This document shows, piece by piece, positions 1-37,072 of a stretch of 53,222 nucleotides of DNA. Under the pieces are notes generated by a model. The model was not told the DNA's origin, made no database searches, and worked only from the letters and a program-made list of their open reading frames with translations. Within the stretch, counting starts at the first letter, position 1, and the number at the start of each line of letters is the position of its first letter. Source of the DNA: a virus. Its lineage: Duplodnaviria > Caudoviricetes. The stretch spans positions 1 to 53,222 of IMG/VR virus record IMGVR_UViG_3300009566_000017, one strand, 5' to 3'. The translations under genes and the position numbers were made by a program.

Positions 1-222
1 AACCCCCAATCATAGGCCCTTCCAGGACTGACCTCTCCAGCTACGGCCCCACAATCTTGCCATCTGCATGCATTATGATGGCCGGAATCGACCCGTAGAG
101 TGCTCAGGACACCCCGGAAATCGAGCGTGAGTGGGCCTACAAGACGCGATCTCCAGCAGGGTGGTATCTGACTACCCCCCACCAGAGATCGGCTGAAAAA
201 CCCCCACTCAATGTCGGATTTT

Positions 223-3200
223 CTACCAAACTGCCCCCATTATGGGGCTCTCGAACCGGCGCTTCTTCCCCCGGTTCTTGCGCTCCGCCTTGTTCACCAG
301 ACGCTGCATCTGATGGAACGGCATCCCGAGGAACTTCTCTCCCGCAAGGGCGGGCTTCTCGGTGAACGAGTACACGTCACGCGCAATGCGTCCGAACGGG
401 AACCAGGTCCATACGTGCTGGCTGGCGAACTTGTCCCAGTCACCCGTCATCAGCGTCCCGAACGTGGCGTACGGGATACGCATTACGGGCGGACTCACCA
501 CCTGAATAACCGACAACGGATACGGCAAGGGCGAGTAGAACGAGCGCTCCTTGTCCTCGTCGTCACCGAAGAAGAACGTCGCCATTTCCTTCAGCTGCGA
601 GAGCGGCCCGCCCAGTACGGACGAGAACATCGAAGCGGGAAACAGCATGGCCAGTCCCCACATGAACAGATCGGCCGTCATCCTGCGCTGGAGCTTCTGG
701 AACGCTTCTGTCCCTTCGTCATAGCCCAGGGCCGCGGCTTCCTTCATGATGTCCACACGCATCTTGGTGCTCTTGAAGGCATACATCTGGAAACGGGAGA
801 ACACGCGTCCCAGCATCGTGCGGGCGAAGGCAGGACGCGCTGCGTTGTTGTACAGGAACTGGGTGCCCGCGACCCCACGGTTCGCCATAGCGATCAACCA
901 GGGATCGTCGTACTTGAACGTTTGCATCGAAGCGCCCAGAACCTCCCTGGCCTTCAGGTAATGCGCCAGCCATGCACGGTTCCGCAGGTAACGCTCGGAA
1001 TAGCGCATGGGCCAGCTCCCAACATCCATCACGCCCTTCATGGCGGCATTCTGTTCCATCTTCTGCTCGAAGCTGTAGCCATCGGCGGACGGCTTGCCCC
1101 GGAAGCGTCCCATGACATCCTTGCCCAGTTCGGCCAGTGAACCCTGGCGTCCGGAAGTCCCAGCCTCGAACACGTCGACGATGTAGGTTTCACCAGCGCC
1201 ATGCTCTTCGGCGAATCGCTCGATGTCTCGCATTGTGTTGAACTCGGGACCCGTAAACACGTTCTGTTTCAGGTACTTAAAGTCCTTGGCTTTCACCCAG
1301 GACTCCATGCCGGTCGACACGGCAGTGTTCACGTTGCCGTCGAACAGGTTGTACGCCATGGTCTTGGTATGCGAGAGCAGCGAGATCATCTCCCACTTGG
1401 CTTCGAGGTTTGCCAGAACACGGGCCTTCCCGTAAAGCGCCTCCTCGGCCCCGTAGGAACCGTTCGCGATCGCCTTCTTGGTGAGTGCTCCCGCCTGCTT
1501 CGCATAGCTGTTACGCTCTTTCTCGGCCTGCTCGGCAGCAGCGACGTCCCCCTTAACGACCGCACGCAACCTGCGCGTCTCGGCATCGGAGGCCTTGGCC
1601 TTCAGCTCGGACTGCTGCTTCGCAGCGGTGTCGTACAACTGATACTTCCTCGAGATCTTCTTGAGCTGATCCAGCATAAACTGGTCTGTGAGTGGATAGT
1701 ACAGCATGTTGTTGCGGATCATGTACGACGGATCCTCCAGCCACTCCTTCCGGAACGTGGACGGGTACCCCATGTTGTCCCGGTTGTAGATCTTCATCAT
1801 CATGGCCCAGGGACCGGTGTTCTTCCCCATGACGTTCCGCCCGACGAAGTCTCCTATCATCGAGTGGCTCATCAGACTGCCCAGCATCTTGTGGTAACCC
1901 CGGATCATCTGCGTCTCATAGCGCCAGAACGCTTCTGTCGACTTGTCCCAGCCAGGTAGCGGCTCGGCTCCACGATGATGCGCCGGAGTCGGGATCACCT
2001 TGAACAGATTCGCCACACGGATCCCCTGCTCCTCGACTGTATCGGCTTCGAGCAGATCCATCGTATCGGCCCAGCCACCCGTCTCGTCGTTGGCCTGCGT
2101 GGCCTGCGATTTCAACTCGGCTTCTGCATCCATGGCCCCGGCCTTGTCACCGGCCTTCAGCTGGTCGAGCACCTTCTCCCGCATGATCTTCTCCACCAGC
2201 TTCCGGGGGTGTCCGTTGTGGGGGAAGTACATCTCCTTGAACGCAAACGGGATCACGGGATCATAGGTCATCCAGCCGGAAGCGTTGATCTTGCTCCCTT
2301 CCAGCTTGGCACGCTCCCGCTGCCGGTGCTCACTGTCGGCAATGTCCCGGTACAGAATGCGGTCATAATGAATGCCGTTGGGATCCGTGTAGTCCTTCAC
2401 GTAGAGCTTCTCGATAAGCATCTGATGATACACGCGGTACAGGCCATTCATACCGATAAACGGCAGCCTTCCGCCCTGCCGGATCGTCTTGGCAAATCCA
2501 GCCAGCGTGGCACGGACATCCACTTCCCCAGTGTCGCGGGTCTTGATGTGCTCCCTCTCCAGCTCGGGATTGTTCAGGAACAACGCCACACGTTCGGCCC
2601 AGCGGGTCTGAAGCTCCATGATGCGGGCATGGATCTGGACGGCGCTCTCGGTGACACGGCTGCCCCGGTGATCGGTGTAGGTCAGCATCTTCTGGCCGCC
2701 GTCGTACAGCCGTTTGAAGCGGGCCTCCGCCTCATCGGCAGCTTTCTCGTAGTCGTAGGGTTCACCGATCTTTGCTGCCTGTTTGCCCTTGGCGGCCATA
2801 TCGGAGAGCTGCGCCGATACGACCACCCCCATCTTCCGCTGCCTGATGTCGGAGACGATCGAGAAGATGGTCTCCCCATCCTCGCCCAGTGAACGGACGA
2901 ACTGGAGTCCGCCCTCGTAGTCCTTCCAGCCAGTCTCCAGCTTCTTGCGCTCCTCATTCATAGTGCCGTTGGTAGAGAAGTGCATGGCCTGCCAGACTTC
3001 GGCGATCGAGTCGAACGTCGAGAGTACGGTTTTGACATCCTTGAAAACTACGTTACCATCGGGCAACGCAACGGGAGCACGATAGGTGGCAATCTGCTCA
3101 TTGTCCACCGGGCGCATGGCCGAACCCAGGCTCTCGGGATCGAACAGGAAATGACGGCGCTTCAGGGCCAGATCACGCTCTTCCTTGGTCAGCTCATGCC

Positions 3201-6200
3201 AGAACTTCCCGTGGTACATGAAATGCCGCATGAACGTCTTCAGGTCGCGCTTCGTCGCCTGACGAATGTTGTGTGCGACGTCTCCGTCACGGTACCTTCC
3301 GGCGAGCACGCCTTCCCAGAGGGCGGGCAGATTCCGCAGGATGTGCGGATAGTGGTAGAGGAACTCCTCGAACTTCTTGAGAAGATCCAGCGTCCCCTTG
3401 TCCAGAGGGTTCTCCGGCGTAGCACCGGAGCGCTCATAGGCTTCTTTCAGGAACGTCTCGTGGTACTCCCTGAGCTTGTACTGGACGTTGACATCGCCTG
3501 CCGCATCGGGAACAACTTCCTTCATCAGCGATGATATACCATCCAGATGCACGGTGCCCGAGACGGCACGGGCCAGCTTCTCGCCGTTGACCGTCTTGCC
3601 GTCGATGCTGCCCAGCAGCTCGTTGACCGTCGAGAGCATCGACTTGATGTACGACGGGTGGATGAAGTCCCAGGTGTAGGCCAGTCGGCTTATCCCGCGA
3701 TGATAGAACTCCTTCGTGACGCGGTCCAGCTCTGCCTGCGCCAGTCCGCGTTCGTTGACCAGGGCGAAATCCTTGACGCCGTTGACCTTCTCCGATTCGG
3801 CGATGCGGCGGCTGAGGTCATCGACCTTGTCCTTCAATGGGGTGATCTTCGTCAGATACGGAGCATCCTGATGATACAGACTGCCCAACAGCCGGTAGGC
3901 GAAGTACTCCTTACCGGGCTCTGAGAGCTTCTGGTACATCTCGTAGGCCCTGTCATGGAGATCCTGCGCACGGCGGTCCCCTTTGATCTTGAAGCCCAGG
4001 TCTTCCAGCGCCTTGTCGTTCGAGAACATCGTGGCATCCTGCGTCTTCAGCTCCTCGGCCAGCGTGCTGATCTCCAGAAGCTTGGCCTGCGCCTCGGTTT
4101 CTGTGCCGCGTCCCCGTGCCACAAAGTCTTCGGCGAATGCCTTCCCGGACTGCATGAGCTTGATGGCACTGACTGCTGAGTAGATGTCGTTGAACACGAG
4201 CTGGTTGATCTCGGTTGCCATCTGCTCGGACGACAGTCCGCGCTGCTTCATGCCTGCGATAGCGGCATCCAGGCCGCTCTGCGGCGCCTGGAAGTGATGC
4301 AGTATCGCGTACGGAGCGAGACGTGGATCCTTGTTGACCAGGCCTACGAACTGCTCCAGGAGCTTCTGCACACCGTCCGTGTTATAGCCAGCCATCGAGG
4401 TCTTCCGGAGCTGGAGTCGGCCCATGTGCAGTCCGCCCAGATACCAGGTGTGCCCGGAATGCTTCAGAACGTCCCGCAGCTCGATCTTGTTCAACCCGCT
4501 GATCACATCCTCAAACGAGAGGCGTGCGCCATTCTGGTTGCGGCCGCGCATCAGGCGGTCAAGCTGCGCCATCTGTGCATATACCGGATGGCGGCGTATG
4601 GGAACAAGCCCCTTGTACGCAACCTCATCGGCGTAGCCGCCGCGTGTGGCCGGAGTCGGCTTCTTCCCTGGTTCACGGAGCCACTCCTTCTTCCCGCCTA
4701 CCGTGTAGTGCACCTTCAGGTCCGGGATGGCGGTGCGCGTGATGACGTCGAAGATCTCTTCCCTTGGCTTCAAGATGTATCCCTTGGACGCATCGGCAGC
4801 CGTGTTGACAACGTCACGCAGGATACGTTCGACCTCGTGCTCGGGAGCGACCTTGCCGCTGAACACGAACTGGGACGTCTTTGTCTTCTCGTCCAGCTGC
4901 CAGAAGCGCGTCTTGCGTGCCTTGTCCATGTCCTTGCCGCGCTTCAGGTACTCCTCAGCCAGCGTACGGTATTCCTCGGCGTCCTGCGCCTTCAGGTTGC
5001 TCAGGCCGGGAAGCGACCCGTCGAGCTTGCCGCGGATCACATCTGCGATGTCCATGGACCACTGGATGATGCCGTCGTTCTTGTCAATCGCCGTACGCAC
5101 CATGTCCAGAAGCCGCCTGGAGTGCAGAAGCGACGGTCCCAGCATACGCAGGCCCCTGGTAGACGACTCATGGAACAACACCTCGTTCTTCGGACTGAAC
5201 GCACCGCCGACAGACGAACGCATGCGCTTCGCCAGGGCGATCTCCTCGGGCGAGCCCTTCTCCTCGACCTGGAACCGTGTGGCGTCGGACTCATCGTACA
5301 CATCCATCTCTTCGCCAGAAGCGGTTCTGGCCTTGTGATGCCACTGCATCGACTTGCCCTTGAAGTAGGCCTTCATGTTCGTGTGCAGCTCACGGTCGGG
5401 CAAACTCGTGTACACATCAACGGCATCCCCGTCCTGATCCATACCGCCCATGTACGACATGTCCTTCGGTGTGACAAACACGCCGTACCCTTTGGAGCCC
5501 TTCACGAATCCCTTGAAACGCAGAATACGGATACCGCTGGCAGAATCTGCCGGAACACGGATCATAAAATGCTCCATGGCTTCATCCAGCTCTTTGTAGC
5601 GCGGCGTGTCCTGCTTACCCTGCACCTGGAGTTCGTAGTATTCGTCCCATGCAGCCCCCAGCGTCGTACGTTCGGGGCCAATGCGGATCGGCTTCTCCCG
5701 GAGACCCTCGGCGGCCATGTACTCGCCGTCCTTCAGGCCATAGCGCTTCTGGAGATGCAGATCCAGGCCGTAGGACTTCGACCGCCATGATCCGTCCAGA
5801 TGCGGCTTCACAACTCGGTCTCGGAAATACTTCCGCATCCTGGTATCCAGGAAGCCCTTCAGGTACTTCCACTCCAGCGTCAACGGGGACAACTCACCTG
5901 CCTTCAGGATCGTCATCGCAGCGCTGCGGGCAGTCGCTTCTTTCATTGCTTCTGCCTTGTCGATCGGATCAACAATGTCGGTGATCTCGGTGAAGTCGTC
6001 TTCCTGCACCTTGAGCACTTCACGGACCACCTTATCGAACAGCGGGCCTTCCTGCATGTAGCGGCCCTGAATGACATCGTACACGTCCTGGGCGCTCATG
6101 CGGCGGACGTCGATACCAGCGGCGATTGCTTTGCGCTCTTCCGGCGTCTTGGCTCCCATGTACCGGACGACCTGCGAGTTCGTCTCGTACTCACCGCGCC

Positions 6201-9200
6201 ACGCGCGTTCGGCCATCTTCTGCACCCAGAGACGCGCCAGACCCTGATCGAGCTGCCCGGAAAACTGGATCTTCGCCTGCACATCGGACAGATCCGCGTG
6301 CTCACCGGCGGAGAAGTTCATCCGCAGGCCTTCTGCCGGAATCAACGTCTCCCACGGACGCTCACCTGTCGCTACCGGCTTCTCAACCGGCGGGGGCAGA
6401 TCAAACGAGAGGTCCTCATCAGCGGGTATGAGTTCGGGCGGAGGCGCTTCGTCCGGCATCTCGGAAACGCGCCGTTCGGACACCTGCGGCTTTGCCGGTG
6501 CGGACTTCTGTGCTTCTGCGCCCTCCAGAGCCATCGTCTCCAGCATGTTCCAGTCGGCTGACGCCACGGGCATGTCGCTCGACATGGTCAGGGACTTGGA
6601 TGCACGGGTCACCGCCGTGTACAGCCAACGCGGATCGTTGGCCATCTTGGACTGCTTGCCGGAGATGAACACACGTTCCCACTGCGATCCCTGACTCTTG
6701 TGCCCGGTGATCGAATAGGCGTAGGTGGCGATGCTCAGCGACTTGCTGATGTATGGGCTACCGTCCTGACGTCTCTTCCCGATGAAAGCCCCGAGCCCGA
6801 CATCGTTGAACGATGCGGGATCGAATGCCTGTATGGATGCAGTCGGTTTGGCGTAGTCGGGCAGGATCAACGTACCCGTAAGCTTACCATCGGATGTGGA
6901 TGGACCCGGCATGAACTGTGCCTTGAGAGGTTTGCCCTGCGGATCCCGCAGCGTCACCATGCGAGCACCATCAACCTGCGCCTTGTCGATGACCTTGAAC
7001 GTCTCGCCGTTCTTCAGTCGTGTCGAATTGAAGATCGAGATCAGCGGCTCACCAGCGATATAGGGGGCATCCAGGTTCACACCATGCACGTGGGAGCGGG
7101 CGTCACGATTGGCAGCGACACGTTCTTCGTTGGTCGTCGCGATCAGCACTGCATCCTCGCCTGCCTTCATCGCGTCCAGGAACTCCTGACGCACTTCACG
7201 CTCGCTCTTAACCGCAACATCACCGTCGCTCTTGTCGGGCATGATAGCCCGCTTGCCGCTGGTCCGCATGGCTGTGGCCAGCTTCAGGATGTTGGACTGA
7301 AGACTCTGGCGGCGTACTTCTGTCAGCTCGTAACTGGGCGACTTCAGGACAGAGAAATCGCTCTTTCCCCCACCCTCGACGGGACGGAGCTGGAAGGTAT
7401 CACCGATCCAGATCACGTTCACGCCATCGGTATTCACCAGATCCATCATGTCCTGGTGGACGGCGCTGTTCACCATCGACGCTTCATCGACGATAACCCA
7501 GTCTCCAGGTTTGGCCTTGACCTTGTCATCAGCGAAGAACGACAGGGCCCCTGTCACCGGATCCACCGACGGCTCCCCGTAGAGCAGATTGTAGATCGTG
7601 CGTGTCCGCACGCCACCCATGCGTTCTTTGATGTCCGCCGGGAGTTTTCCGTCCAGCACGCGCACTGCCTTGTTGGTCGGAGCAACGACATGGACCTCGC
7701 CGCTTCCCATCACCGCATGGGCCGTGCGGACAAGGTTCTCGATGATCGTGGTCTTACCGGTACCGGCATAACCAGCCAGAACGAACGTCTTGCCCTTGGC
7801 TCCGGGCTTGATCATATCCCCCAGCTTCAGTAGCGCTTCCCGCTGTCCGCTGGTGTACTCGATTGGTGTCTGTCGGTTGTCCAGAATCCCTACGGGCTTG
7901 GATACGTCAATCGTATGAGGCACGGGCGATTGCTCAACAGCGGGACGCTCCTCCGCCGGTTTCGCGGGGACAGGAGCAGCGGGCGCTGCTGCGCTCTCGC
8001 CCAGAAGCCTGCCGTCCTCGTGACGGTACTCGATGTCGCTGGTCTTGCTGTTCCAACGCTCGGTGAACTGCTCGCGAATCCCCTGCTGCTTGGCTGCCGT
8101 ATCGTAGATCTTGTATGCCCACCCCTTGCCCATCAGGTGCGCGTCCAGCTCCGGTGTGGCACGGTGCACCAACAGCTTGCCCAGGAACATGCCCTTACCG
8201 GGCTCGGCAAACGTGATCGTGAGCTTCTGGGCCCCTGTCCCCTTCTGGCCCATGGCACGTTCCAGGCGGTCGAAGTAATCGCCGCGCATGAACATCACAC
8301 CATCGAGATGCGTATCAACGACGTAGCGCTCCGCCGTACCGTCCTTGCCCATGCGGTATGCGGTGAAGCCCAGTCCGTCCAGATCTTTGGAATCCACCTG
8401 CACGATGATCCCCGGAAGCTTGCCGTTCTGGAAGTGCGGCAATCCGGCAAACGTCTCGCCCGCCATGTAGTAGTCCGGCGAGTGGATCACCTGGAGCCGC
8501 TTGTTCCAGTCCACCGGCTTCAGGATGAACTTCTTCCCGTGTGCCAGCATGGCTTCGACGGGAACTCCAGCGTTCAGCGTCTCCAGCACGACGATGTCGT
8601 TGGCGTACAGATGATCGAACATCGCGTCGAGCTTGTGCTCGGGGATGATATAGCGGCCCGACTCGTCGAGGAAGTCCGACTTGAAATCGCGCTTTGCGTA
8701 TTCGTAGGACTCGATGATGTTCTCGACCGTCTCGCCTTCTTTGGCCGTTGCGTTCAGGGCGCGCTGCATGGCAGCGAGCTTGTCTTCCAGGGAGAACACG
8801 ACGCGTTTCCCGTTCGCCGGATCACGGTAGGAGTACATCTCACGGCCATCCCGGAATACACGCCAGGTCAGGGCGCGTCCGAACAGACGCACACCGGTGT
8901 CCTTCTTGCCGCCCATGAACATGAGCGGCTGGTCATAGCCGTCTTTCGTCTTCCGGAAGTACATATCAGCGATGACACGGCTGAACTTCAGACCAGGCAC
9001 TTCGGTCAGATCAACGAGGCGCTCTTTCCCGGTCTTGGGATCCTTGATGTAGGCCTCGGACACCTCGATGATGCGGCTTCTGCGATACTTGCCATCGCGG
9101 TTGAACAGCATCAGGTCCATGTAGCTGGCCGCCTTCTTGCCCTGCGTCGGCTTACCGTCCAGAATCTCGGGCATGGATACGACCTGCGGCTCGCCGCTGG

Positions 9201-11010
9201 CATCGAGCTTGACCATCATGGTCATGTATGGACGGTCCTGCACCATACGCGTCCACATGACGCTCAGATCGCCGTACAGATCGCTCTCGCGGTCTATTGT
9301 GAACGGTGTATCGGACTTCGCGTACTTGCCCTCGACCTTCTGGATGAACGATTCGAGATCGCTCATGCGGACACTGCCGCTCTTGCCGTCCAGGAACGCA
9401 GCCATCTCTTTGACCAGCTCCACCTCGAACTCGGCGTAGGACTTGGTCTCCTTCGTCTTGAGGAAGTGCTCCTCCATCTTCAGGGCAAGCTTCGTCAGGG
9501 GATCATGGAAGCGCACCGGAACATGTTCCTCCTCGAACGCCTGAAGCACCAGCTGGTTCTGCTTGGTCAGAAGATCGTTCGTCGCACGCTTGTCGGCAAG
9601 ATCGTTCTCCTTGAGCGTCTTGACGAACTGCTCGTACATGTTCTCCTTCTCAGCACCGAACGAATACATGCGCTCGCGCAGACCTTCCTTGGCCGCCTTG
9701 ACGATCTCCGCCGGATCGGTGATCCCGCGGTCCTTGGCCGCCTGTTCCTCCAGGCCGTACTCCACCATCATGCGCTGGCCGTCCAGGATCTCGTCCAGCG
9801 TCGTCATGTCGATCTGGTGATCGGACACCGACCGTTCGAGAGCAGACTTGGCAGCCGTGCCCAGCCCCTCGCCCACGTTGGTCCAACCGGTACGCATCTC
9901 GACGCGGCCGATGTGCAGATCGCCCCAGTGCAGGACCTCTTCCTTCGCATGCTCGGACAGCCCGTCCCATCCTTCGAGTTTCTCCGGGCGAAGCAGCTTC
10001 CACTGTCCGCCAACGCTCCGAAGGTTCTTGCTCCAGAAGCGTCCAGCTTCCTCCATCCAGGCGGGTTTCTCCAGAGTGCCGAAGACGGCGCCGGATACCC
10101 AGTCATAGATCTGGATCGGCGTAGGATCGCCGCGCAGCGTAGACGGCAGCCCCATGTACAGCGCCGACGTGGCAGCGCGTGCCACGATGTTCCCAAGGGC
10201 CTCCCGTTCACTGCCATCAGCGAGCACACGGCGGGCGGAGCTGCCCACGAGGCCGCCCTTCCCGATCAGGTTTCCGATTCCGCCGAAGACCACACCGGCC
10301 TCGAAGCCGTAGGAGAGCGCCTGTAGCCTGGTATCCAGGTCCAGCCGGTAGATCGGTGCAGCGGAGACGGCAGAAGCGAGCCCCAGGTGCATTCCCTTCT
10401 GGAGCATCGCAGCTCCGGCACCGTTGGCCACCATGTACTTCTCGAGGAACTTCACGTGGCCGAGACCTTCGCGCATACCGTTGAAGGCCCACTTACCGAG
10501 CTTGCTCTCCATGGCCAGATCAGCGCCCAGCATCGGCACGCTTTTCAGCCGCGCAAGCTGCGCTGGTAGCTGTCCAAGCTGCTCCAGGTTCTTGAGGCGC
10601 ACGCCAAACTCACCGCCGATACGGAGCGCTTCCATGCCGCGCCCGATCACCATCGAGCTGCGTATCAGCGCAGAAGCCCCCAGCTTGCCAAGCGAACCGA
10701 CGCCAGGGACGATACCGATAAACCCCAGCAGGTGTCCCAGATTCCTGGCAACGTACTCGTAGTCGTTTTCCGGATTGGAGCCCACCTCGAGCGTCGTGAA
10801 ACCCTGAACAAAGCCCTGGAGCAACTGGCCGGTGGTGTCTCCGATACTGAAGTCCTTGTCACCGGATTTGTAAGGCAGTCCGGCAGAAGCGACCATCCTG
10901 GTCAGTTCAACGGTATCCTCCTCGTTGAACAGCTCAGGATTGTTCGCCTGCATGGACTGAAGGGACTGAAGGTTGGACTGCTCAACTGTCAGTAGTCTGG
11001 GATCAGGCAT
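223..11010 (-). CDS. Giant (3595 aa) putative virion-ejected polyprotein: two-barrel (crAss gp66/QDE-1-like) RNA polymerase with an inserted SF1B helicase
   Basis: GGMDQDGD catalytic-type motif (nt 5425-5439, aa ~1858-1862) preceded by RVP (nt 5551-5559). HLDGVMF and KGMFLGK motifs at aa ~900-945. SF1 helicase motifs GYAGTGKT, APTNKA, DEASM, GDTFQL, EVRRQ, HKSQGSQW and YTAVTRA. Last gene of the tail/ejection module. Confidence 0.8.
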   Translation of the reverse strand: MPDPRLLTVEQSNLQSLQSMQANNPELFNEEDTVELTRMVASAGLPYKSGDKDFSIGDTTGQLLQGFVQGFTTLEVGSNPENDYEYVARNLGHLLGFIGIVPGVGSLGKLGASALIRSSMVIGRGMEALRIGGEFGVRLKNLEQLGQLPAQLARLKSVPMLGADLAMESKLGKWAFNGMREGLGHVKFLEKYMVANGAGAAMLQKGMHLGLASAVSAAPIYRLDLDTRLQALSYGFEAGVVFGGIGNLIGKGGLVGSSARRVLADGSEREALGNIVARAATSALYMGLPSTLRGDPTPIQIYDWVSGAVFGTLEKPAWMEEAGRFWSKNLRSVGGQWKLLRPEKLEGWDGLSEHAKEEVLHWGDLHIGRVEMRTGWTNVGEGLGTAAKSALERSVSDHQIDMTTLDEILDGQRMMVEYGLEEQAAKDRGITDPAEIVKAAKEGLRERMYSFGAEKENMYEQFVKTLKENDLADKRATNDLLTKQNQLVLQAFEEEHVPVRFHDPLTKLALKMEEHFLKTKETKSYAEFEVELVKEMAAFLDGKSGSVRMSDLESFIQKVEGKYAKSDTPFTIDRESDLYGDLSVMWTRMVQDRPYMTMMVKLDASGEPQVVSMPEILDGKPTQGKKAASYMDLMLFNRDGKYRRSRIIEVSEAYIKDPKTGKERLVDLTEVPGLKFSRVIADMYFRKTKDGYDQPLMFMGGKKDTGVRLFGRALTWRVFRDGREMYSYRDPANGKRVVFSLEDKLAAMQRALNATAKEGETVENIIESYEYAKRDFKSDFLDESGRYIIPEHKLDAMFDHLYANDIVVLETLNAGVPVEAMLAHGKKFILKPVDWNKRLQVIHSPDYYMAGETFAGLPHFQNGKLPGIIVQVDSKDLDGLGFTAYRMGKDGTAERYVVDTHLDGVMFMRGDYFDRLERAMGQKGTGAQKLTITFAEPGKGMFLGKLLVHRATPELDAHLMGKGWAYKIYDTAAKQQGIREQFTERWNSKTSDIEYRHEDGRLLGESAAAPAAPVPAKPAEERPAVEQSPVPHTIDVSKPVGILDNRQTPIEYTSGQREALLKLGDMIKPGAKGKTFVLAGYAGTGKTTIIENLVRTAHAVMGSGEVHVVAPTNKAVRVLDGKLPADIKERMGGVRTRTIYNLLYGEPSVDPVTGALSFFADDKVKAKPGDWVIVDEASMVNSAVHQDMMDLVNTDGVNVIWIGDTFQLRPVEGGGKSDFSVLKSPSYELTEVRRQSLQSNILKLATAMRTSGKRAIMPDKSDGDVAVKSEREVRQEFLDAMKAGEDAVLIATTNEERVAANRDARSHVHGVNLDAPYIAGEPLISIFNSTRLKNGETFKVIDKAQVDGARMVTLRDPQGKPLKAQFMPGPSTSDGKLTGTLILPDYAKPTASIQAFDPASFNDVGLGAFIGKRRQDGSPYISKSLSIATYAYSITGHKSQGSQWERVFISGKQSKMANDPRWLYTAVTRASKSLTMSSDMPVASADWNMLETMALEGAEAQKSAPAKPQVSERRVSEMPDEAPPPELIPADEDLSFDLPPPVEKPVATGERPWETLIPAEGLRMNFSAGEHADLSDVQAKIQFSGQLDQGLARLWVQKMAERAWRGEYETNSQVVRYMGAKTPEERKAIAAGIDVRRMSAQDVYDVIQGRYMQEGPLFDKVVREVLKVQEDDFTEITDIVDPIDKAEAMKEATARSAAMTILKAGELSPLTLEWKYLKGFLDTRMRKYFRDRVVKPHLDGSWRSKSYGLDLHLQKRYGLKDGEYMAAEGLREKPIRIGPERTTLGAAWDEYYELQVQGKQDTPRYKELDEAMEHFMIRVPADSASGIRILRFKGFVKGSKGYGVFVTPKDMSYMGGMDQDGDAVDVYTSLPDRELHTNMKAYFKGKSMQWHHKARTASGEEMDVYDESDATRFQVEEKGSPEEIALAKRMRSSVGGAFSPKNEVLFHESSTRGLRMLGPSLLHSRRLLDMVRTAIDKNDGIIQWSMDIADVIRGKLDGSLPGLSNLKAQDAEEYRTLAEEYLKRGKDMDKARKTRFWQLDEKTKTSQFVFSGKVAPEHEVERILRDVVNTAADASKGYILKPREEIFDVITRTAIPDLKVHYTVGGKKEWLREPGKKPTPATRGGYADEVAYKGLVPIRRHPVYAQMAQLDRLMRGRNQNGARLSFEDVISGLNKIELRDVLKHSGHTWYLGGLHMGRLQLRKTSMAGYNTDGVQKLLEQFVGLVNKDPRLAPYAILHHFQAPQSGLDAAIAGMKQRGLSSEQMATEINQLVFNDIYSAVSAIKLMQSGKAFAEDFVARGRGTETEAQAKLLEISTLAEELKTQDATMFSNDKALEDLGFKIKGDRRAQDLHDRAYEMYQKLSEPGKEYFAYRLLGSLYHQDAPYLTKITPLKDKVDDLSRRIAESEKVNGVKDFALVNERGLAQAELDRVTKEFYHRGISRLAYTWDFIHPSYIKSMLSTVNELLGSIDGKTVNGEKLARAVSGTVHLDGISSLMKEVVPDAAGDVNVQYKLREYHETFLKEAYERSGATPENPLDKGTLDLLKKFEEFLYHYPHILRNLPALWEGVLAGRYRDGDVAHNIRQATKRDLKTFMRHFMYHGKFWHELTKEERDLALKRRHFLFDPESLGSAMRPVDNEQIATYRAPVALPDGNVVFKDVKTVLSTFDSIAEVWQAMHFSTNGTMNEERKKLETGWKDYEGGLQFVRSLGEDGETIFSIVSDIRQRKMGVVVSAQLSDMAAKGKQAAKIGEPYDYEKAADEAEARFKRLYDGGQKMLTYTDHRGSRVTESAVQIHARIMELQTRWAERVALFLNNPELEREHIKTRDTGEVDVRATLAGFAKTIRQGGRLPFIGMNGLYRVYHQMLIEKLYVKDYTDPNGIHYDRILYRDIADSEHRQRERAKLEGSKINASGWMTYDPVIPFAFKEMYFPHNGHPRKLVEKIMREKVLDQLKAGDKAGAMDAEAELKSQATQANDETGGWADTMDLLEADTVEEQGIRVANLFKVIPTPAHHRGAEPLPGWDKSTEAFWRYETQMIRGYHKMLGSLMSHSMIGDFVGRNVMGKNTGPWAMMMKIYNRDNMGYPSTFRKEWLEDPSYMIRNNMLYYPLTDQFMLDQLKKISRKYQLYDTAAKQQSELKAKASDAETRRLRAVVKGDVAAAEQAEKERNSYAKQAGALTKKAIANGSYGAEEALYGKARVLANLEAKWEMISLLSHTKTMAYNLFDGNVNTAVSTGMESWVKAKDFKYLKQNVFTGPEFNTMRDIERFAEEHGAGETYIVDVFEAGTSGRQGSLAELGKDVMGRFRGKPSADGYSFEQKMEQNAAMKGVMDVGSWPMRYSERYLRNRAWLAHYLKAREVLGASMQTFKYDDPWLIAMANRGVAGTQFLYNNAARPAFARTMLGRVFSRFQMYAFKSTKMRVDIMKEAAALGYDEGTEAFQKLQRRMTADLFMWGLAMLFPASMFSSVLGGPLSQLKEMATFFFGDDEDKERSFYSPLPYPLSVIQVVSPPVMRIPYATFGTLMTGDWDKFASQHVWTWFPFGRIARDVYSFTEKPALAGEKFLGMPFHQMQRLVNKAERKNRGKKRRFESPIMGAVW

Positions 11011-14699: not shown

Positions 14700-15152
14700 C
14701 TACTTGCTCCACTTGATGATAAGCAACACGATACCGATCAGCAGCAGCAGAAAGAGAATCAGCGGGACATAGCCGAGCGTCGTTTCCCAGATCGTCAGCT
14801 CGCGCTCGTGCTTGATGATCGTCACCGCCGTGTCCTTGTCGACGTATTCAACGGGAGGCGGAGTGACCTGCACCCTGACATCCCATTTCTTGATCTCGCG
14901 TACCGCCTCTTTCACCTTCTGGATCTGCTCGCCGGTCTTGCCCTTGACATCGGGCGTGACGGTGACGGTCCCCACGGAAGACGAATCCGTTACGATCGAC
15001 AGGCTGTCCGTCATCGTAGCCGACAGGACTGTGTCTATCCTGGGAACAAACACCAGCACCGTCTCAGCACTGGTAGTCTGCTCGACAGAGACTCGTTCGC
15101 TGGCACCACATCCCAGAAGCAACAGAAGCATTGCAGCTGCCAAATATTTCAT
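14700..15152 (-). CDS. Unimolecular spanin (u-spanin)-like lipoprotein
   Basis: MKYLAAAMLLLLLGC lipobox, beta-rich middle and C-terminal TM helix (YVPLILFLLLLIGIVLLII); ATGA-coupled to the endolysin. Confidence 0.75.
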   Translation of the reverse strand: MKYLAAAMLLLLLGCGASERVSVEQTTSAETVLVFVPRIDTVLSATMTDSLSIVTDSSSVGTVTVTPDVKGKTGEQIQKVKEAVREIKKWDVRVQVTPPPVEYVDKDTAVTIIKHERELTIWETTLGYVPLILFLLLLIGIVLLIIKWSK

Positions 15153-15622
15153 GCGACGACTCCTTTGAGAGCACGGGTCATCCACCCGGCAAGGAATTTC
15201 ACCTGAGAAGTATTGCGTGTCACGATCCGCGTGTAATGCATGACCGACGCTTCCACCAGCTTCAGCAGCAGGCGCTCTGGATGCATCGCATTGATGGCAT
15301 AGAGCGTCTCCTGTCCCATGATCCCATCAACGCGGACACCGACGGCGGCCTGCACGTACATCGTGGCACGGATCCTGCCCATGTTGACCGCCATATCGAA
15401 GATCTTCCACCGGATCGTCTCGTTGGCCACTTCGTCCAGGCGCAAGAGATCGTAGAAGTCACGCTGCAAGATAGCTGCGGCGTCCTCTTTGGTCAGGTTC
15501 TTGATGTCCACGTGCGGATAGCTCCGGCGGGAGATCCCGAACTTCGTCTCACCGCCTGGATCGTCAACATCGTTAACGTAGCCGCCTTCAAGATTCAGTG
15601 TGCGTTCAATGATCGTGTTCAT
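15149..15622 (-). CDS. Endolysin, glycoside hydrolase family 108 with peptidoglycan-binding C-terminus
   Basis: EGGYVNDVDDPGGETKFGIS, FDMAVNMG, DGIMGQET and FLAGWMTR motifs; start reassigned to ATG 15622. Confidence 0.92.
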   Translation of the reverse strand: MNTIIERTLNLEGGYVNDVDDPGGETKFGISRRSYPHVDIKNLTKEDAAAILQRDFYDLLRLDEVANETIRWKIFDMAVNMGRIRATMYVQAAVGVRVDGIMGQETLYAINAMHPERLLLKLVEASVMHYTRIVTRNTSQVKFLAGWMTRALKGVVA

Positions 15623-15932
15623 ACGATCCCATCCCGGTACGCAGACTGGGGATACAGTGCGTACACTCGTCCTTGCGGACATAGTTGCGAGCAAGATCAA
15701 TGTGCAGATCAGCGATCTTCTGACGCGTCTGTGTATTCTCGGAGCTGACAAGCGTTTTGACCTCATCAAACCGCGTGAGATAGTTGAACTTGATCTCATT
15801 GACGTCTTGCGTGACGGCGTCGATCTTGACAATCTTGCTGCGTACGAACCAACCGACAATGCCTATCAGCAACATGATGATGACGCTACTGAGCGTCTGG
15901 ACGAGTTCGGCGATCTCCGGATGCAGTGTCAT
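15606..15932 (-). CDS. Putative holin / single-TM coiled-coil protein
   Basis: One N-terminal TM helix (VIIMLLIGIVGWFV); directly upstream of the endolysin. Confidence 0.5.
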   Translation of the reverse strand: MTLHPEIAELVQTLSSVIIMLLIGIVGWFVRSKIVKIDAVTQDVNEIKFNYLTRFDEVKTLVSSENTQTRQKIADLHIDLARNYVRKDECTHCIPSLRTGMGSYEHDH

Positions 15933-16230: not shown

Positions 16231-16599
16231 CTATTTGAATACGAGATACAGGGTTGCCAGGGACGCCAACGCGGCCCCCACCTCCAGCCACCACAATCTG
16301 GGCCACCAGTTCTCGCCCGGAGTGCGGTGAAACGGAATATCGAGCAGGACATGCCAGAGGATCGGCGGGAAGAAGAACCCGAGCCACACAAGATCCCCCG
16401 AATGCATCCTGCTGTACAGCACCCAGCGCGGCTTCTTGAAGACGACAGAAGCCACCCAGTCGGCGGTGTCAGGGAGCGTCCCCACGATGCCACCGAGGAT
16501 CACCGCCCCAACAGACTGTTCCGGCGGAACGTGGCCGTGCATAAACACGAGCGCCGTTCCCGCTGCTCCAACCAATCCATGTGTGACGAACGTTGCCAT
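16231..16599 (-). CDS. YdjM-like membrane metal-dependent hydrolase
   Basis: THGL, G.LPD..D, HSG and H..LD motifs among hydrophobic helices; TGATG-coupled start. Confidence 0.6.
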   Translation of the reverse strand: MATFVTHGLVGAAGTALVFMHGHVPPEQSVGAVILGGIVGTLPDTADWVASVVFKKPRWVLYSRMHSGDLVWLGFFFPPILWHVLLDIPFHRTPGENWWPRLWWLEVGAALASLATLYLVFK

Positions 16600-18968
16600 C
16601 AGCGTATCCGTATCCTGAGCCGTTTTTTGATTGAGGGCGAAGGCGGATCGGGATCTGGGTCTGGATCGGGCGTTCCCCCATCCGTATATTGCCTCGCCCC
16701 GATGTCGTCGCCCCACCCGAGGTCTGTCCCCGCGTTGATGCACGGAGAATCAGACTGAAGGTTGAAATCCGCGAGCTTCACATGACCTGCCGCAGAGTCC
16801 CATGGCGATGCTACAAACAGCGGGTTCTGCCCAGAAACATCGTGTGCGCCGCTCATTACCGCATCGGTGCCGGAGAGCGCGACCGACCAGAGGTTGTAAT
16901 CGGAATATGTCGTGCCGCCCGGTGTCTCGTCGCTCTGGGAGAAACAGTCCAGGCCGGTAGTGTCGAGCTGCGCTATGATGTTGTTCTTGAATGTGACGTT
17001 GTTGAACGGAACGGTGTTCCAGAGATATGTCGTCCCGCCGTCGTACCACGAGCAAATGAACGTGTTGTTGGCCACGATAAAGTTTGTCGGCCCATCAGCG
17101 AGAGCGAACACGGTACCGCCGCCCATCGCGACGTTGTTGATCACGGTGTCTCTTGAAAACGTGAAGCCCACGTATGCCTCGTTCCAGATGCCAAAAGACA
17201 CGTCACCGTAAATGCCGGACGCGGGAATCCGGCGCATCATCCAGGTGTTGTAGGCCAGGTTTCTCTGGAACTTGCTGTCTTCGCACAAGAGCATGTAGAG
17301 AGAGACCGAATAGGTGTTGTAAACGACATTGTCCTCGACGAGCGCTCCCTTGCAAATGCGGTGCGTGAGTCCTTCGCCCCAGATGTTGTAGAGCGTGTTC
17401 CTGCGCGAGATCGGATACAGCACCGTATCGACGACGCGCCATTGCCCCTCGATCTCGCTGCCATAACCCGCGACGAAGATTCCGACCCCCCAGGGCCCGT
17501 AGGGGAAGTTGTTGTAGCTCGGCTCATACCGTGCAGCATAGTTGTCCAGATAGACATCGTGAACAAGGCAGTCTTCGATGATCGGATAATCGCCGGAAGC
17601 GGCAATCCCCGACCCGCCCAGGTTGTGAATGTTCAAGCTGTCCACGGTCACATGGTCACCCGCAATCTGCACACCGCGGATGTTTCCCAGATCGCTATCC
17701 GTGTTGCGGATTTCCAGCCCGACGCAGTCCCAGTAATTCGCGCTCAGAGCAACCACCCCCCAGTTGTCGAGCCAGGATTCCCAGTAGGCAGCTCCACCCG
17801 ACCACTTTGAGAAATCGCCGTCGATGATCGGCTGCTCGCCGGGATAGCGCTGGATGACAATGTGCGCGTTTGCCGTCCCGTCGTTGTACCCCGGCTCTGC
17901 GTAGATATTCTGGTAGTACACTCCCCCTCTGACGAAGAGCGTGTCTCCCGCTTCAAGCAGAGGCAAAGCATGAGCGAACGTCGCCCAGGGACTTCCAATG
18001 GAGCCATCGTCGCTATCGCTACCATCGACGGCAATAAAGCGTGCGTTCGCCGAGGGTTCATACCCACTGCCTTCGGGACCATCCCACCCAGCCAGTCGCG
18101 CCCAGAGCCACCACGCGGCTCCCGCCTTTACGATGCAGTTTAACGCGTACGAGTGGTCGCAATCTGTACACAGGGAAGCCAGCGTCGCCATCTCCGAATC
18201 GGGGTTTGCCGCCACCCAGTTCACTCCCCAGTTCTGGTCACGACTCCCATTGTTGTCGCTGTCGTAATCCAGCGTGTCGTCCATATTGTACGCCGTATAG
18301 TTTGTCGTGCCATGGGGAGCATAGCTTTCTATGTCGGCATAGTCGTAGAGGACCTTGTGGTTCGTGTAGCAGAAATCCCGGATCTGCTCGTTGTTCTGGT
18401 TCGCCGTTCCCGATGTGCCATAGCCATCGGCTGGTCCAGTCATGTACACGAACTGGATACTGGGATACTCGCTTTCCAGCGAGTCCATGCCAAGCAGATA
18501 TTTGTCGATCTGCGCGGACGTTGCGGAGCCGATAGGCCAGCACCATGCCCACATCACTACGTTCCGGTCGTTCGTGCCGTCTCCGCCATTGAGCATCCAG
18601 CGTGTAGCCCACGTGAAACCGCCGTCTCCGTACCGAAGATCGTAGACCGAAAGAGGAGCCGCGGCGTCGTTGGCAGCAGTACCGGACCACACGTAGTTCA
18701 TAAACTTACCGGCGGTGAGCCCGTTGGACCACATCTCGACATTGAACCTCGAGATTTCATCCGCCATCACGTACATTCCGGAGATCAGCTGGTGACCGTG
18801 CGACGTATTGGCGTAGCCGATCTTGAGCTTCGCTTTTGCACTGTCCACCCAGTTGTTCGGAATCTGGTTGTAGTAGATGCAGTCATGGTCGACAAGAATG
18901 CCGTACTGGGCGTGGCCGAGCACGCTCACCAGCATAAGGAGCGATAATGTCAATGTGCGCATCATCAT
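16599..18968 (-). CDS. Signal-peptide protein: SGNH-like N-terminal domain plus right-handed beta-helix (pectin-lyase-like)
   Basis: Signal MMRTLTLSLLMLVSVLGHA|Q; TSHGHQL...DCDH domain; GSDSDDGSIGSPWAT...GDTLFVRGGVY beta-helix entry; SPCINAG...DIGA cap; (PD)n linker and basic tail. Confidence 0.7.
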   Translation of the reverse strand: MMMRTLTLSLLMLVSVLGHAQYGILVDHDCIYYNQIPNNWVDSAKAKLKIGYANTSHGHQLISGMYVMADEISRFNVEMWSNGLTAGKFMNYVWSGTAANDAAAPLSVYDLRYGDGGFTWATRWMLNGGDGTNDRNVVMWAWCWPIGSATSAQIDKYLLGMDSLESEYPSIQFVYMTGPADGYGTSGTANQNNEQIRDFCYTNHKVLYDYADIESYAPHGTTNYTAYNMDDTLDYDSDNNGSRDQNWGVNWVAANPDSEMATLASLCTDCDHSYALNCIVKAGAAWWLWARLAGWDGPEGSGYEPSANARFIAVDGSDSDDGSIGSPWATFAHALPLLEAGDTLFVRGGVYYQNIYAEPGYNDGTANAHIVIQRYPGEQPIIDGDFSKWSGGAAYWESWLDNWGVVALSANYWDCVGLEIRNTDSDLGNIRGVQIAGDHVTVDSLNIHNLGGSGIAASGDYPIIEDCLVHDVYLDNYAARYEPSYNNFPYGPWGVGIFVAGYGSEIEGQWRVVDTVLYPISRRNTLYNIWGEGLTHRICKGALVEDNVVYNTYSVSLYMLLCEDSKFQRNLAYNTWMMRRIPASGIYGDVSFGIWNEAYVGFTFSRDTVINNVAMGGGTVFALADGPTNFIVANNTFICSWYDGGTTYLWNTVPFNNVTFKNNIIAQLDTTGLDCFSQSDETPGGTTYSDYNLWSVALSGTDAVMSGAHDVSGQNPLFVASPWDSAAGHVKLADFNLQSDSPCINAGTDLGWGDDIGARQYTDGGTPDPDPDPDPPSPSIKKRLRIRIR

Positions 18969-36834: not shown

Positions 36835-37072
36835 CGAGCGCCTTCTGCCGTGCGATGAGGGTCTGTCCCCAGGCCTTCCACACGCACCGGCACACGATCG
36901 GCTTGCCGTCCTCGCGGAACCCGATCCGTCCGGTGCCCCAGCACGGGTCATGCTTCTTGACGATGGTGTCGATGATCTTCTTCTCCTCGTCCGTCAATTC
37001 CTCGGGCCAGGAGTTCTCCATCGTCGCCTTGTTGAGCGCATCGCGCTCTTCCAGACTCAGGTGTTCAGACAT
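36818..37072 (-). CDS. Small Zn-finger-like protein
   Basis: HDPCWGTG...CRC pattern. Confidence 0.5.
   Translation of the reverse strand: MSEHLSLEERDALNKATMENSWPEELTDEEKKIIDTIVKKHDPCWGTGRIGFREDGKPIVCRCVWKAWGQTLIARQKALDVKSE

What the first reader, a model, noticed from the sequence alone, without database searches (positions are those of the whole stretch)
5400..8320. Putative virion RNA polymerase with a complete SF1B helicase inserted between its two barrel regions
Seen: the 3595-aa ORF has LDG (aa ~903) and KGMFLGK motifs, then a full Dda/RecD2-like helicase (aa ~1050-1475, nt ~6580-7860: GYAGTGKT, APTNKA, DEASM, GD..QL, RQ, HKSQGS, YTAVTRA), then RVP (aa ~1818) and GGMDQDGD (aa ~1858). 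Pro/Ala-rich linkers bracket the helicase (SAAAPAAPVPAKPAEE; APPPELIP...LPPPVEKP), as expected for an inserted module. Known: single-chain two-barrel RNAPs (crAss-like phi14:2 gp66, QDE-1, YonO) use a DxDxD loop preceded by an R-x-P motif, and gp66 is virion-packaged and prefers single-stranded templates in vitro. Inference: this is an ejected polymerase carrying its own 5'-3' unwinding motor, used for template melting or for pulling the genome into the cell. I do not know of a characterised example of this fusion.
Basis: partly seen in the sequence, partly recalled or inferred. Interest (0 to 1): 0.9.

Follow-up and report, generated by a model that had tools for sequence, protein, structure and literature searches.

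The report
Phage RNA polymerase with inserted helicase
A 3595-residue late protein of an uncultured phage folds like the RNA polymerases that some phages carry in their particles, and it has a complete DNA helicase looped out between the two halves of its catalytic core, which is a rare placement of a polymerase-helicase pairing that is common in crAss-like phages.

Summary
An AlphaFold model of aa 800-1999 matches single-chain two-barrel RNA polymerases across both flanks of the helicase: QDE-1 Z 17.8, crAss-like phi14:2 gp66 Z 12.0, P23-45 gp96 Z 11.6. The DxDxD and R-x-P motifs are invariant in 65 of 65 aligned relatives. Residues 1040-1509 are an intact Dda/RecD-type SF1B helicase (PHROG 3.6e-68; Foldseek T4 Dda 3.7e-18) held by two disordered Pro/Ala-rich linkers.

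The backbone is a large uncultured-phage family that is not detectably gp66-like by sequence. Only this protein and its sister P0003 carry the helicase (2 of 150 family proteins; 0 of 80 IMG/VR loci). A tree supports a single gain.

The fusion itself is not new. Of 118 other giant proteins with a related helicase, 88 have a gp66-type polymerase core. In 83 the helicase is C-terminal, as in RefSeq crAss-like phage cr118_1 gp14. In one (P0285) it is also between the barrels. Earlier notes of this scan report such crAss-type fusions on other DNA.

Virion packaging and helicase-assisted template unwinding are inferences, not shown. Verdict: a new variant of a known kind, of moderate to high interest.

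The parts
223..11010 (-). Giant ORF of 3595 aa (P0001), the last gene of the leftward structural/late gene block
   Evidence: Searches show the open frame. Portal, MCP and TerL lie upstream on the same strand.
8011..8433 (-). First double-psi beta-barrel region (beta-like, 'DPBB-B'), aa ~860-1000, with invariant D903/G904, K929, K945 and K974
   Evidence: The AF2 model has pLDDT ~90+ and is beta-rich here. The region is included in the alignments to QDE-1 and gp66.
7894..7995 (-). N-terminal Pro/Ala/Glu-rich linker of the insert, aa ~1006-1039
   Evidence: The sequence is. pLDDT is <50 in both models. The segment is absent from helicase-less homologues.
6484..7893 (-). Complete SF1B (Dda/RecD2-type) helicase, aa ~1040-1509; Walker A K1086, DEASM 1175, GDxxQ 1203, RQ 1234, HKSQG 1437, YTAVTRA 1464
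   Evidence: family and PDB sequence hits; all 36 invariant helicase columns are present; model pLDDT 81.5, Foldseek T4 Dda 3.7e-18, RecD2 2.6e-17.
6352..6483 (-). C-terminal Pro-rich linker of the insert, aa ~1510-1553
   Evidence: pLDDT <50. This is the least conserved segment between P0001 and P0003, at 25% identity.
5794..6348 (-). Return strand plus helical connector/clamp-like domain between the barrels, aa ~1555-1739
   Evidence: AF2 pLDDT 85-95, helices 782-935 of the model. hhalign places the 'LRMNF' block at about gp66 residue 1095, the start of gp66's Connector.
5311..5793 (-). Second double-psi beta-barrel (beta'-like, 'DPBB-A'), aa ~1740-1900, with R1818-V-P1820
   Evidence: matches to the largest subunits of multisubunit RNAPs, Z 8-10, on model residues 932-1108. 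Foldseek bacterial RNAP chains 4.9e-5; aligned onto gp66 1289-1387.
5425..5439 (-). Candidate metal-binding motif D1858-Q-D1860-G-D1862
   Evidence: Invariant D-x-D-x-D in 7 of 7 and 65 of 65. Aligned to gp66 1361-DFDID-1365.
5080..5193 (-). Long helix aa ~1940-1977, a candidate bridge helix
   Evidence: The model has a 38-residue helix at pLDDT 62-80. The QDE-1 and gp66 alignments extend to model residue 1173. The assignment is an inference.

Best explanation
The gene encodes a giant late protein whose centre is a single-chain two-barrel RNA polymerase of the kind that crAss-like phages and Thermus phage P23-45 carry in their particles. It belongs to a separate, previously unnamed sequence family of uncultured ~45-53 kb phages. 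In the common ancestor of this phage and one relative, a complete Dda/RecD-type SF1B helicase was inserted into a loop at the junction between the first barrel and the inter-barrel connector. It is held there by two flexible Pro/Ala-rich tethers.

Most likely mechanism (inferred): the protein is packaged into the virion, enters the cell with the DNA and transcribes the first genes. The tethered helicase translocates 5'-3' on the non-template strand, in the same direction as the polymerase moves along the template. It thereby supplies the single-stranded template that gp66-type polymerases need.

Shown: the fold, the motifs, the insertion, its single origin and its conservation. Inferred: packaging, polymerase activity, helicase polarity and the coupling between the two enzymes.
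For: Fold. The AF2 model of aa 800-1999 has pLDDT ~90 on both flanks. VIA-align gives QDE-1 7y7p_A Z 17.8 (403 aligned, model 7..1173), RDR2 Z 13.5, P74 gp62 Z 12.2, phi14:2 gp66 6vr4_B Z 12.0 (471 aligned, chain 866-1562) and P23-45 gp96 Z 11.6.

Motifs. DxDxD, R-x-P and three barrel-B lysines are invariant in 65 of 65 sequences. hmmsearch and hhalign put them on gp66's RIP...DFDID.

Helicase. Searches identify it. The linkers are predicted disordered.

Insertion. The spacing between the barrels is 756 aa here and 867 aa in P0003, against 298 aa or less in 165 of 183 relatives. The helicase is present in 2 of 150 family proteins and in 0 of 80 IMG/VR loci. None of 5 complete relatives has it anywhere (positive control).

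Single gain. (P0001, P0003) are sisters with support 0.999, nested among helicase-less forms.

Conservation. The helicase is 46% identical between the two proteins, similar to barrel B (49%) and the connector (46%).

Coupling. Related helicases sit in one polypeptide with gp66-type cores in 88 of 118 giant proteins, at three different positions. Our helicase is nested within that clade. gp66 transcribes ssDNA efficiently but dsDNA only weakly or not at all in vitro, and QDE-1 needs the QDE-3 helicase and RPA (passages of the preprint).

Late-gene position. The gene lies at the end of the structural block, as g066 does in phi14:2.
Against: No activity, virion proteomics or transcript data exist for this phage. 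Sequence profiles do not link the family to gp66: the PDB profile search found nothing, the gp66-type HMM gives no hit to P0001 or P0004 at E<=1, and hhalign probability is only 50%. The link to gp66 therefore rests on a predicted structure and on motifs.

Other relatives carry unrelated modules. A cpYpsA SLOG domain sits at two different sites. A sub-threshold ART-PolyVal domain sits between the barrels of P0107. The backbone therefore tolerates cargo that has nothing to do with unwinding. About 99% of the family works without a fused helicase, and five complete relatives encode none, so a helicase is not obligatory for this type of polymerase.
Confidence: 0.6

Rival explanations
1. The polymerase backbone is real, but the helicase is independent 'polyvalent protein' cargo. 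On this view the giant virion protein is a delivery vehicle, and the helicase acts on its own after entry, for example in counter-defence, in clearing proteins from the entering DNA, or in starting replication or recombination. It would not be mechanically coupled to transcription.
For: Unrelated modules occupy the same backbone. cpYpsA SLOG lies upstream of barrel B in P0004 (aa 683-830) and after the DxDxD in P0005 (aa 1518-1665). ART-PolyVal (7e-7, just under Pfam's cut-off) lies between the barrels of P0107. In crAss-type giants the helicase co-occurs with PF13532, PF08719 and PF18760 domains (precomputed Pfam lists). Long disordered tethers suit a loosely attached module. Polyvalent phage proteins that contain helicases are described (PMC5512222, passages read).
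Against: The helicase recurs with this polymerase type at three positions, including twice inside the core. The helicases of such giants form a clade. That pattern argues for a specific partnership rather than random cargo. The two readings are not mutually exclusive.
Confidence: 0.3
2. The two-barrel module is not a transcriptase. It could be a primase-like or RNA-templated polymerase, a PolD-like DNA polymerase, or an inactive structural relic. The helicase would then serve replication.
For: The best structural match is QDE-1, an enzyme with both RNA- and DNA-templated activity (abstract of PMC9508822 in the listing). No DNA polymerase was recognised by Pfam or PHROGs in the ORFs I scanned.
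Against: All catalytic-type residues are invariant across the family, so an inactive relic is unlikely. The matched phage proteins gp66 and gp96 are DNA-dependent RNA polymerases that transcribe early genes. The gene sits in the late/structural block and not with the primase-helicase at 44408-46204. No PolD chain appears among the 50 rows shown, which is not an exclusion.
Confidence: 0.07
3. The helicase segment is an assembly chimera or a mis-joined neighbouring gene.
For: The contig is a metagenomic assembly. No sequencing run could be listed to check reads.
Against: The frame is open through both junctions. An independent contig encodes P0003, which has the same insert at the same site at 46% identity. 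GC and GC3 of the insert (0.60/0.72) are close to those of the flanks (0.59-0.61/0.75-0.82).
Confidence: 0.02

Closest known systems
[quoted passage not shown]
   Same: It is a single chain with two double-psi beta-barrels joined by a connector (Z 12.0, 471 aligned residues). R-x-P and DxDxD align. It is a giant protein encoded at the end of the structural block. gp66 is virion-packaged and prefers ssDNA templates (preprint passages).
   Different: There is no detectable sequence-family membership. The motif is DQDGD here, not DFDID. gp66 has no helicase, and phi14:2 encodes no related helicase anywhere. The host phage here is not recognisably a crassvirus: TerL is <25% identical to any isolate and the capsid protein is of the SU10 type.
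crAss-like phage cr118_1 gp14 (YP_010110531.1, 4946 aa, annotated 'exonuclease V'; NC_055872.1) and similar giant proteins
   Same: One polypeptide carries a two-barrel polymerase core (DFDID at 3209; gp66-type HMM 3.5e-71) and an SF1B helicase of the same kind (AAA_30 1.7e-25, UvrD_C_2; GYAGTGKT Walker A).
   Different: The helicase is at the C-terminus, about 1250 residues after the catalytic motif, and not inside the core. The polymerase sequence family and the phage order are different.
P0285, a metagenomic 4489-aa gp66-type giant protein
   Same: An SF1B helicase (aa 2964-3392) splits the polymerase core between the barrels. HMM positions 18-371 lie before it and 375-717 after it, each at about 1e-42.
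   Different: The family is crAss-type (DFDID). The insertion point maps to gp66 residues ~1169-1174, in the middle of the connector. Ours maps to about residue 1095, at the start of the connector. This is an independent event.
Neurospora QDE-1 (PDB 7Y7P/2J7N)
   Same: It is the best structural match (Z 17.8). It works with a separate helicase (QDE-3) and RPA on ssDNA.
   Different: It is a eukaryotic RNA-silencing enzyme. Its helicase is a separate protein of another family. It is not part of a virion.
Thermus phage P23-45 gp96, tape-measure-fused virion RNA polymerase (PDB 8H2M/8H2N)
   Same: It is a two-barrel virion polymerase fused to a large virion protein (Z 11.1-11.6; passages).
   Different: It is fused to a tape measure, has a short connector and has no helicase ('helicase' occurs 0 times in the text).
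T4 Dda and Deinococcus RecD2 (SF1B helicases)
   Same: The fold and all motifs match.
   Different: They are stand-alone proteins. Here the domain is embedded in another enzyme. The closest stand-alone relatives are ~476-aa proteins at 40% identity.

Membership tests
Two-barrel (double-psi beta-barrel) RNA polymerase superfamily, single-chain forms | Two DPBB domains in one chain, arranged as in QDE-1 and gp66 | tested here: met
   QDE-1 Z 17.8, rmsd 5.0, 403 aligned over model 7..1173. gp66 Z 12.0, 471 aligned. The test rests on a predicted model with pLDDT ~90 on these parts.
Two-barrel (double-psi beta-barrel) RNA polymerase superfamily, single-chain forms | DxDxD metal-binding loop in the beta'-like barrel | tested here: met
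   D1858, D1860 and D1862 are invariant in 65 of 65 sequences. A D.D.D is present in 182 of 183 family hits, the exception being a truncated protein. The motif aligns to gp66 DFDID.
Two-barrel (double-psi beta-barrel) RNA polymerase superfamily, single-chain forms | Conserved basic residues in the beta-like barrel | tested here: met
   K929, K945 and K974 are invariant in 65 of 65 sequences. That these correspond to the catalytic lysines of the beta subunit is recalled, not tested.
Two-barrel (double-psi beta-barrel) RNA polymerase superfamily, single-chain forms | Bridge helix after the catalytic barrel | tested here: inconclusive
   A 38-residue helix at aa ~1940-1977 has pLDDT 62-80 and lies within the aligned range. 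It was not mapped residue by residue.
Two-barrel (double-psi beta-barrel) RNA polymerase superfamily, single-chain forms | Templated RNA synthesis | not testable with these tools
   This needs biochemistry.
gp66-type virion RNA polymerases of Crassvirales | Sequence-profile membership | tested here: not met
   A gp66-type core HMM hits gp66 at 1.9e-67 and cr118_1 gp14 at 3.5e-71, but gives no hit at E<=1 to P0001 or P0004. The PDB profile search found no polymerase. hhalign probability is 50%.
gp66-type virion RNA polymerases of Crassvirales | Presence in the virion and delivery into the host | not testable with these tools
   Only the late-block position of the gene is seen.
SF1B helicases (Dda/RecD2/Pif1) | Helicase motifs I, Ia, II, III, IV, V and VI | tested here: met
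   All 36 invariant columns of a 66-sequence alignment are present, including GxxGxGKT, DE, GDxxQ, R, HKxQG and YTxxxR.
SF1B helicases (Dda/RecD2/Pif1) | Fold | tested here: met
   Model pLDDT 81.5, pTM 0.78. Foldseek gives DSH9 7.7e-19, T4 Dda 3.7e-18 (TM 0.66 on the target) and RecD2 2.6e-17.
SF1B helicases (Dda/RecD2/Pif1) | 5'-3' translocation on ssDNA | not testable with these tools
   Inferred from family membership.
Polyvalent proteins of phages (Iyer et al. 2017) | Several enzymatic domains in one polypeptide of a phage, delivered with the DNA | tested here: inconclusive
   Two enzymatic modules are present. Hallmark polyvalent domains are not in this protein. They occur in relatives only: ART-PolyVal below cut-off in P0107 and cpYpsA in P0004 and P0005. 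Delivery was not tested.

The most novel reading that the evidence does not exclude
SF1B helicases of this clade are dedicated partners of gp66-type virion RNA polymerases. The pair works as a two-motor machine, with the polymerase moving 3'-5' on the template strand and the helicase 5'-3' on the non-template strand, comparable to the two motors of RecBCD. It can start transcription on the entering double-stranded genome without classical promoter melting and may help draw the DNA in. The intra-core insertion seen here, and independently in P0285, is the tightest version of that partnership. It would explain why gp66 alone handles only single-stranded DNA in vitro.
Probability: 0.3. Interest if true: 0.8.

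Novelty: new variant of a known kind. Interest (0 to 1): 0.6.

Why it matters
Characterised virion two-barrel polymerases pose a puzzle. In vitro, gp66 transcribes single-stranded DNA efficiently but double-stranded DNA only weakly or not at all, yet the phage genome enters the cell double-stranded.

This protein places an intact 5'-3' helicase inside the polymerase core. Related helicases are fused to gp66-type cores in most giant proteins that carry them (88 of 118). Together these give a concrete, testable answer: the unwinding activity is supplied in cis.

The protein also defines a large polymerase family with no Pfam or PHROG model: 145 cluster representatives and 185 IMG/VR stretches. 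It shows that this strategy extends beyond Crassvirales. The central 800-2400 fragment is a compact natural construct for biochemistry.

Tried and rejected
Sequence searches did not reach known polymerases. Pfam and PHROGs on the whole protein found only the helicase. phmmer and a 7-sequence profile against PDB sequences found no polymerase. tblastn of the C-terminal half against 50,697 phage records found nothing.

A mixed alignment that included stand-alone helicases (A2) was misaligned: barrel B of the relatives was stacked on the helicase. I discarded it. The Z~8 methyltransferase rows on model residues 247-416 are a generic Rossmann-like match to that poorly modelled part, and I do not read them as a finding.

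The first hhalign run, which used the helicase-containing query, ran partly through the helicase (36%). It was replaced by a run with a helicase-less master.

Pfam on three other large family members found nothing, and on P0065 and P0045 nothing.

The look-up of sequencing runs listed no run, so no read-level check of the junctions was possible and read laying was not used.

Literature searches. 'Crassvirales' + 'RNA polymerase' + 'helicase domain' gave 0 papers. 'Helicase' occurs 0 times in the crAss001 structural atlas and 0 times in the P23-45 paper. The polyvalent-protein paper contains no 'double-psi', 'RecD' or 'SF1'. I could not see Fig. 3 of PMC7886860 or any supplement. These show the domains of the crAss transcription block and may already depict the helicase. 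PMC5736458 is not held. I did not test a T7-like (N4-type) polymerase reading directly; the structural matches to two-barrel polymerases point away from it.

Full report
**Observation**

The window is one complete-looking viral contig of 53,222 bp. ORF 223-11010 on the minus strand encodes 3595 residues.

The central part is a helicase by any standard:
- Pfam AAA_30 1e-26, AAA_19 2.5e-17 and UvrD_C_2 2.8e-12.
- PHROG 325 'Dda-like helicase' 3.6e-68 over aa 1046-1482.
- PDB sequence hits to a Dda-like protein (9kwf), RecD2 and RecD.

No family library recognised anything else in the protein.

**Genomic setting**

The genome is phage-like. On the same strand as the giant gene lie the following:
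- TerL at 35287-36951 and a portal protein at 32678-34963.
- An SU10-type capsid protein at 30484-31833.
- Beta-helix tail proteins.
- A GH108 lysin at 15149-15859.

A primase/DnaB-type helicase lies on the other strand at 44408-46204. The giant gene is the last gene of the ~35-kb leftward late block. This is the position of g066 and its neighbours in phi14:2. TerL is below 25% identity to every isolated phage. No second RNA polymerase and no DNA polymerase were recognised in the ORFs I scanned.

**The backbone family**

A word-indexed search with aa 1550-2400 found 7 proteins, including the window's own. An exhaustive phmmer search found 145 cluster representatives at E<=1e-3, mostly 2600-3600 aa long. 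A scan of IMG/VR found 185 stretches that encode relatives. The 80 loci kept lie on contigs of about 6-89 kb, many of them 40-53 kb.

The following residues are invariant in an alignment of 65 sequences: D903, K929, K945, K974, R1818, P1820, G1826, G1856, D1858, D1860 and D1862 (a similar set in the 7 full-length proteins). The family has no Pfam or PHROG model.

**Fold of the flanks**

I folded aa 800-1999 with that alignment. Mean pLDDT is 68.8 and pTM 0.59. Confidence is about 90 for aa 800-1000 and 1550-1900, and low for the helicase, where the alignment had only two rows.

Foldseek against the PDB returned bacterial RNA polymerase chains (best 4.9e-5), T4 Dda (9.6e-5) and the phage AR9 polymerase core. 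I recall that the D and J chains of these bacterial entries are beta'.

VIA-align against 48,161 chains gave these top matches:
- QDE-1: Z 17.8, 403 aligned, spanning model residues 7 to 1173, that is both sides of the helicase.
- Maize RDR2: Z 13.5.
- P74 gp62: Z 12.2.
- phi14:2 gp66: Z 12.0, 471 aligned, chain 866-1562.
- P23-45 gp96: Z 11.6.
- After these, the A and D chains of multisubunit polymerases at Z 8-10, on the second barrel only. I recall that these chains are the largest subunits.

A family HMM aligns 'RVP...GGxDxDxD' onto gp66 'RIP...GSDFDID'. A profile-profile comparison aligns 350 columns across both barrels at 50% probability.

The two-barrel reading is therefore strongly supported by predicted structure and motifs. 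It is only weakly supported by sequence profiles: one search found nothing, and a gp66-type HMM does not hit this family.

**The helicase as an insertion**

The helicase-less homologue P0004 runs straight from '...YYNKAGVEV...' to '...LSALRMNFSAGE...'. Here about 548 residues intervene.

- With HMMs for each barrel, the inter-barrel spacing is 756 aa here and 867 aa in P0003. It is 298 aa or less in 165 of 183 relatives, and the next largest value is 465.
- A related helicase is present in 2 of 150 family proteins.
- It is present in 0 of 69 giant ORFs and 0 of 80 IMG/VR loci.
- It is found nowhere in 5 complete relatives (the search finds it in the window's own genome).

A tree of three conserved blocks from 161 sequences puts P0001 and P0003 together with support 0.999. 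P0004 joins next (0.995), then P0009 and P0010 (0.987). This indicates one gain.

Between P0001 and P0003 the helicase is 46% identical. Barrel B is 49% and the connector 46%. The C-linker is 25%.

Folded alone with 66 homologues, aa 1000-1575 gives pLDDT 81.5 and pTM 0.78, with both linkers below 50. This model matches DSH9, T4 Dda and RecD2 at 1e-17 to 1e-19. All invariant helicase columns are intact.

The model shows a strand before the insert and a strand after it at high confidence, so the module loops out of a hairpin. By hhalign the return point corresponds to about gp66 residue 1095, the start of gp66's Connector domain.

GC and GC3 show no discontinuity across the insert.

**The fusion elsewhere**

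Searching the helicase region among proteins of 1977-6292 aa gave 222 hits, of which the best 120 were listed. I built an HMM of the gp66-type core from 54 of the 118 listed proteins other than P0002 and P0003. It recognises phi14:2 gp66 at 1.9e-67 and cr118_1 gp14 at 3.5e-71, neither of which was in the training set.

With this HMM, 88 of the 118 have a gp66-type core:
- The helicase is C-terminal to the core in 83.
- It is N-terminal in 4.
- It is inside the core in 1 (P0285).
- 30 have no such hit.

Among those 30, a set of marine ~2700-aa proteins shows weak hits to this window's family HMMs, with the helicase N-terminal to the barrels (Pfam for P0350). P0285's insertion maps to gp66 residues ~1169-1174, in the middle of the connector.

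A RefSeq example is crAss-like phage cr118_1 gp14, 4946 aa, annotated 'exonuclease V'. It has DFDID at 3209 and the helicase at 4462-4907. phi14:2 itself has no related helicase.

In a tree of 239 helicase domains, ours plus P0003 sit inside a 124-leaf clade (support 0.945) that holds 90 giant proteins. The sampling is biased by how the lists were drawn. The closest stand-alone helicases are ~476-aa proteins at 40% identity.

Earlier notes of this scan independently report crAss-type polymerase-helicase giants in other genomes. None of the notes shown describes a helicase between the barrels.

**Other inserts in the family**

- cpYpsA SLOG domains sit upstream of barrel B in P0004 and after the DxDxD in P0005.
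- An ART-PolyVal match just under Pfam's cut-off sits between the barrels of P0107.

The backbone thus accepts accessory modules, and this feeds the rival 'cargo' reading.

**Mechanism**

Shown:
- A conserved two-barrel core.
- An intact SF1B helicase.
- A loop insertion on disordered tethers.
- A single origin and conservation since that gain.
- A recurrent partnership of this helicase clade with this polymerase type.

Inferred from established knowledge:
- SF1B helicases such as Dda and RecD2 move 5'-3' on single-stranded DNA, whereas a polymerase reads its template 3'-5'. A helicase on the non-template strand would therefore travel with the polymerase and open the duplex ahead of it.
- gp66 needs single-stranded templates in vitro, and QDE-1 needs a helicase and RPA.
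- The connector is part of the clamp, near the hybrid (passages).
- Virion packaging is inferred from the late-block position and from the analogy with gp66, gp96 and N4.

**Verdict**

The function is plausible but untested. The polymerase-helicase fusion as such already exists, uncharacterised, in many crAss-type proteins. The new elements are a separate, unnamed polymerase family outside recognisable Crassvirales, and the placement of the helicase within the catalytic core, which has arisen at least twice. I class it as a new variant of a known kind, with interest 0.6.

Noticed in passing
P0285 (metagenomic protein, 4489 aa), aa 2581-3952: A crAss-type (DFDID) polymerase core is split by an SF1B helicase at a different point of the inter-barrel connector (about gp66 residues 1169-1174). 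This is an independent, convergent insertion.
   Followed up: yes
L082 (NC_055872.1, crAss-like phage cr118_1) 3670-18510: The RefSeq CDS annotated only as 'exonuclease V' is a 4946-aa protein. It contains the gp66-type polymerase core (DFDID at aa 3209) plus a C-terminal SF1B helicase, so the annotation hides the polymerase.
   Followed up: yes
P0004 aa 683-830; P0005 aa 1518-1665: cpYpsA (SLOG) domains are inserted at two different places in relatives of the giant protein, before barrel B in one and after the DxDxD in the other.
   Followed up: partly
P0107 aa 1192-1334: An ART-PolyVal (ADP-ribosyltransferase) match (7e-7, 30.5 bits against a cut-off of 31.2) lies between the two barrels of another family member, in the same region that holds the helicase here.
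   Followed up: partly
P0334, P0337, P0350, P0355 and similar (~2670-2750 aa, several from marine surveys): This appears to be a third group of giant proteins. The same kind of helicase sits at aa ~800-1220, and weak matches to both barrel HMMs (DSDGD/DNDGD) lie about 650-900 residues downstream of it. The helicase is N-terminal to the polymerase.
   Followed up: partly
L086 (QCPL01000010.1, Prochlorococcus sp. AG-436-M02 single-cell assembly, 46,061-bp contig): This is the only hit in 185,579 species genomes. A helicase-less relative of the giant protein lies on a phage-sized contig of a Prochlorococcus single-cell assembly, which is a possible host clue for that branch of the family.
   Followed up: no
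window 29938-30011 (-): A single tRNA-Met (CAT) lies inside the late gene block.
   Followed up: no
window 15149-15859 (-): A lysin with GH108 and PG_binding_3 domains lies within the structural block. Beta-helix proteins lie at 16599-19007, 18965-21166 and 24425-27796.
   Followed up: no
window, whole: Pfam and PHROGs recognised no DNA polymerase and no second RNA polymerase in the ORFs scanned. Replication genes seen are a primase/DnaB-like protein (44408-46204), a Gam-like protein (46399-47088) and an AAA ATPase (48003-49202).
   Followed up: partly
window 223-2950 (-), aa ~2690-3595: The C-terminal ~700 residues are the best conserved part between P0001 and P0003 (58% identity). They contain the protein's only strongly hydrophobic segment (aa 3448-3466). 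Their role is unknown.
   Followed up: no
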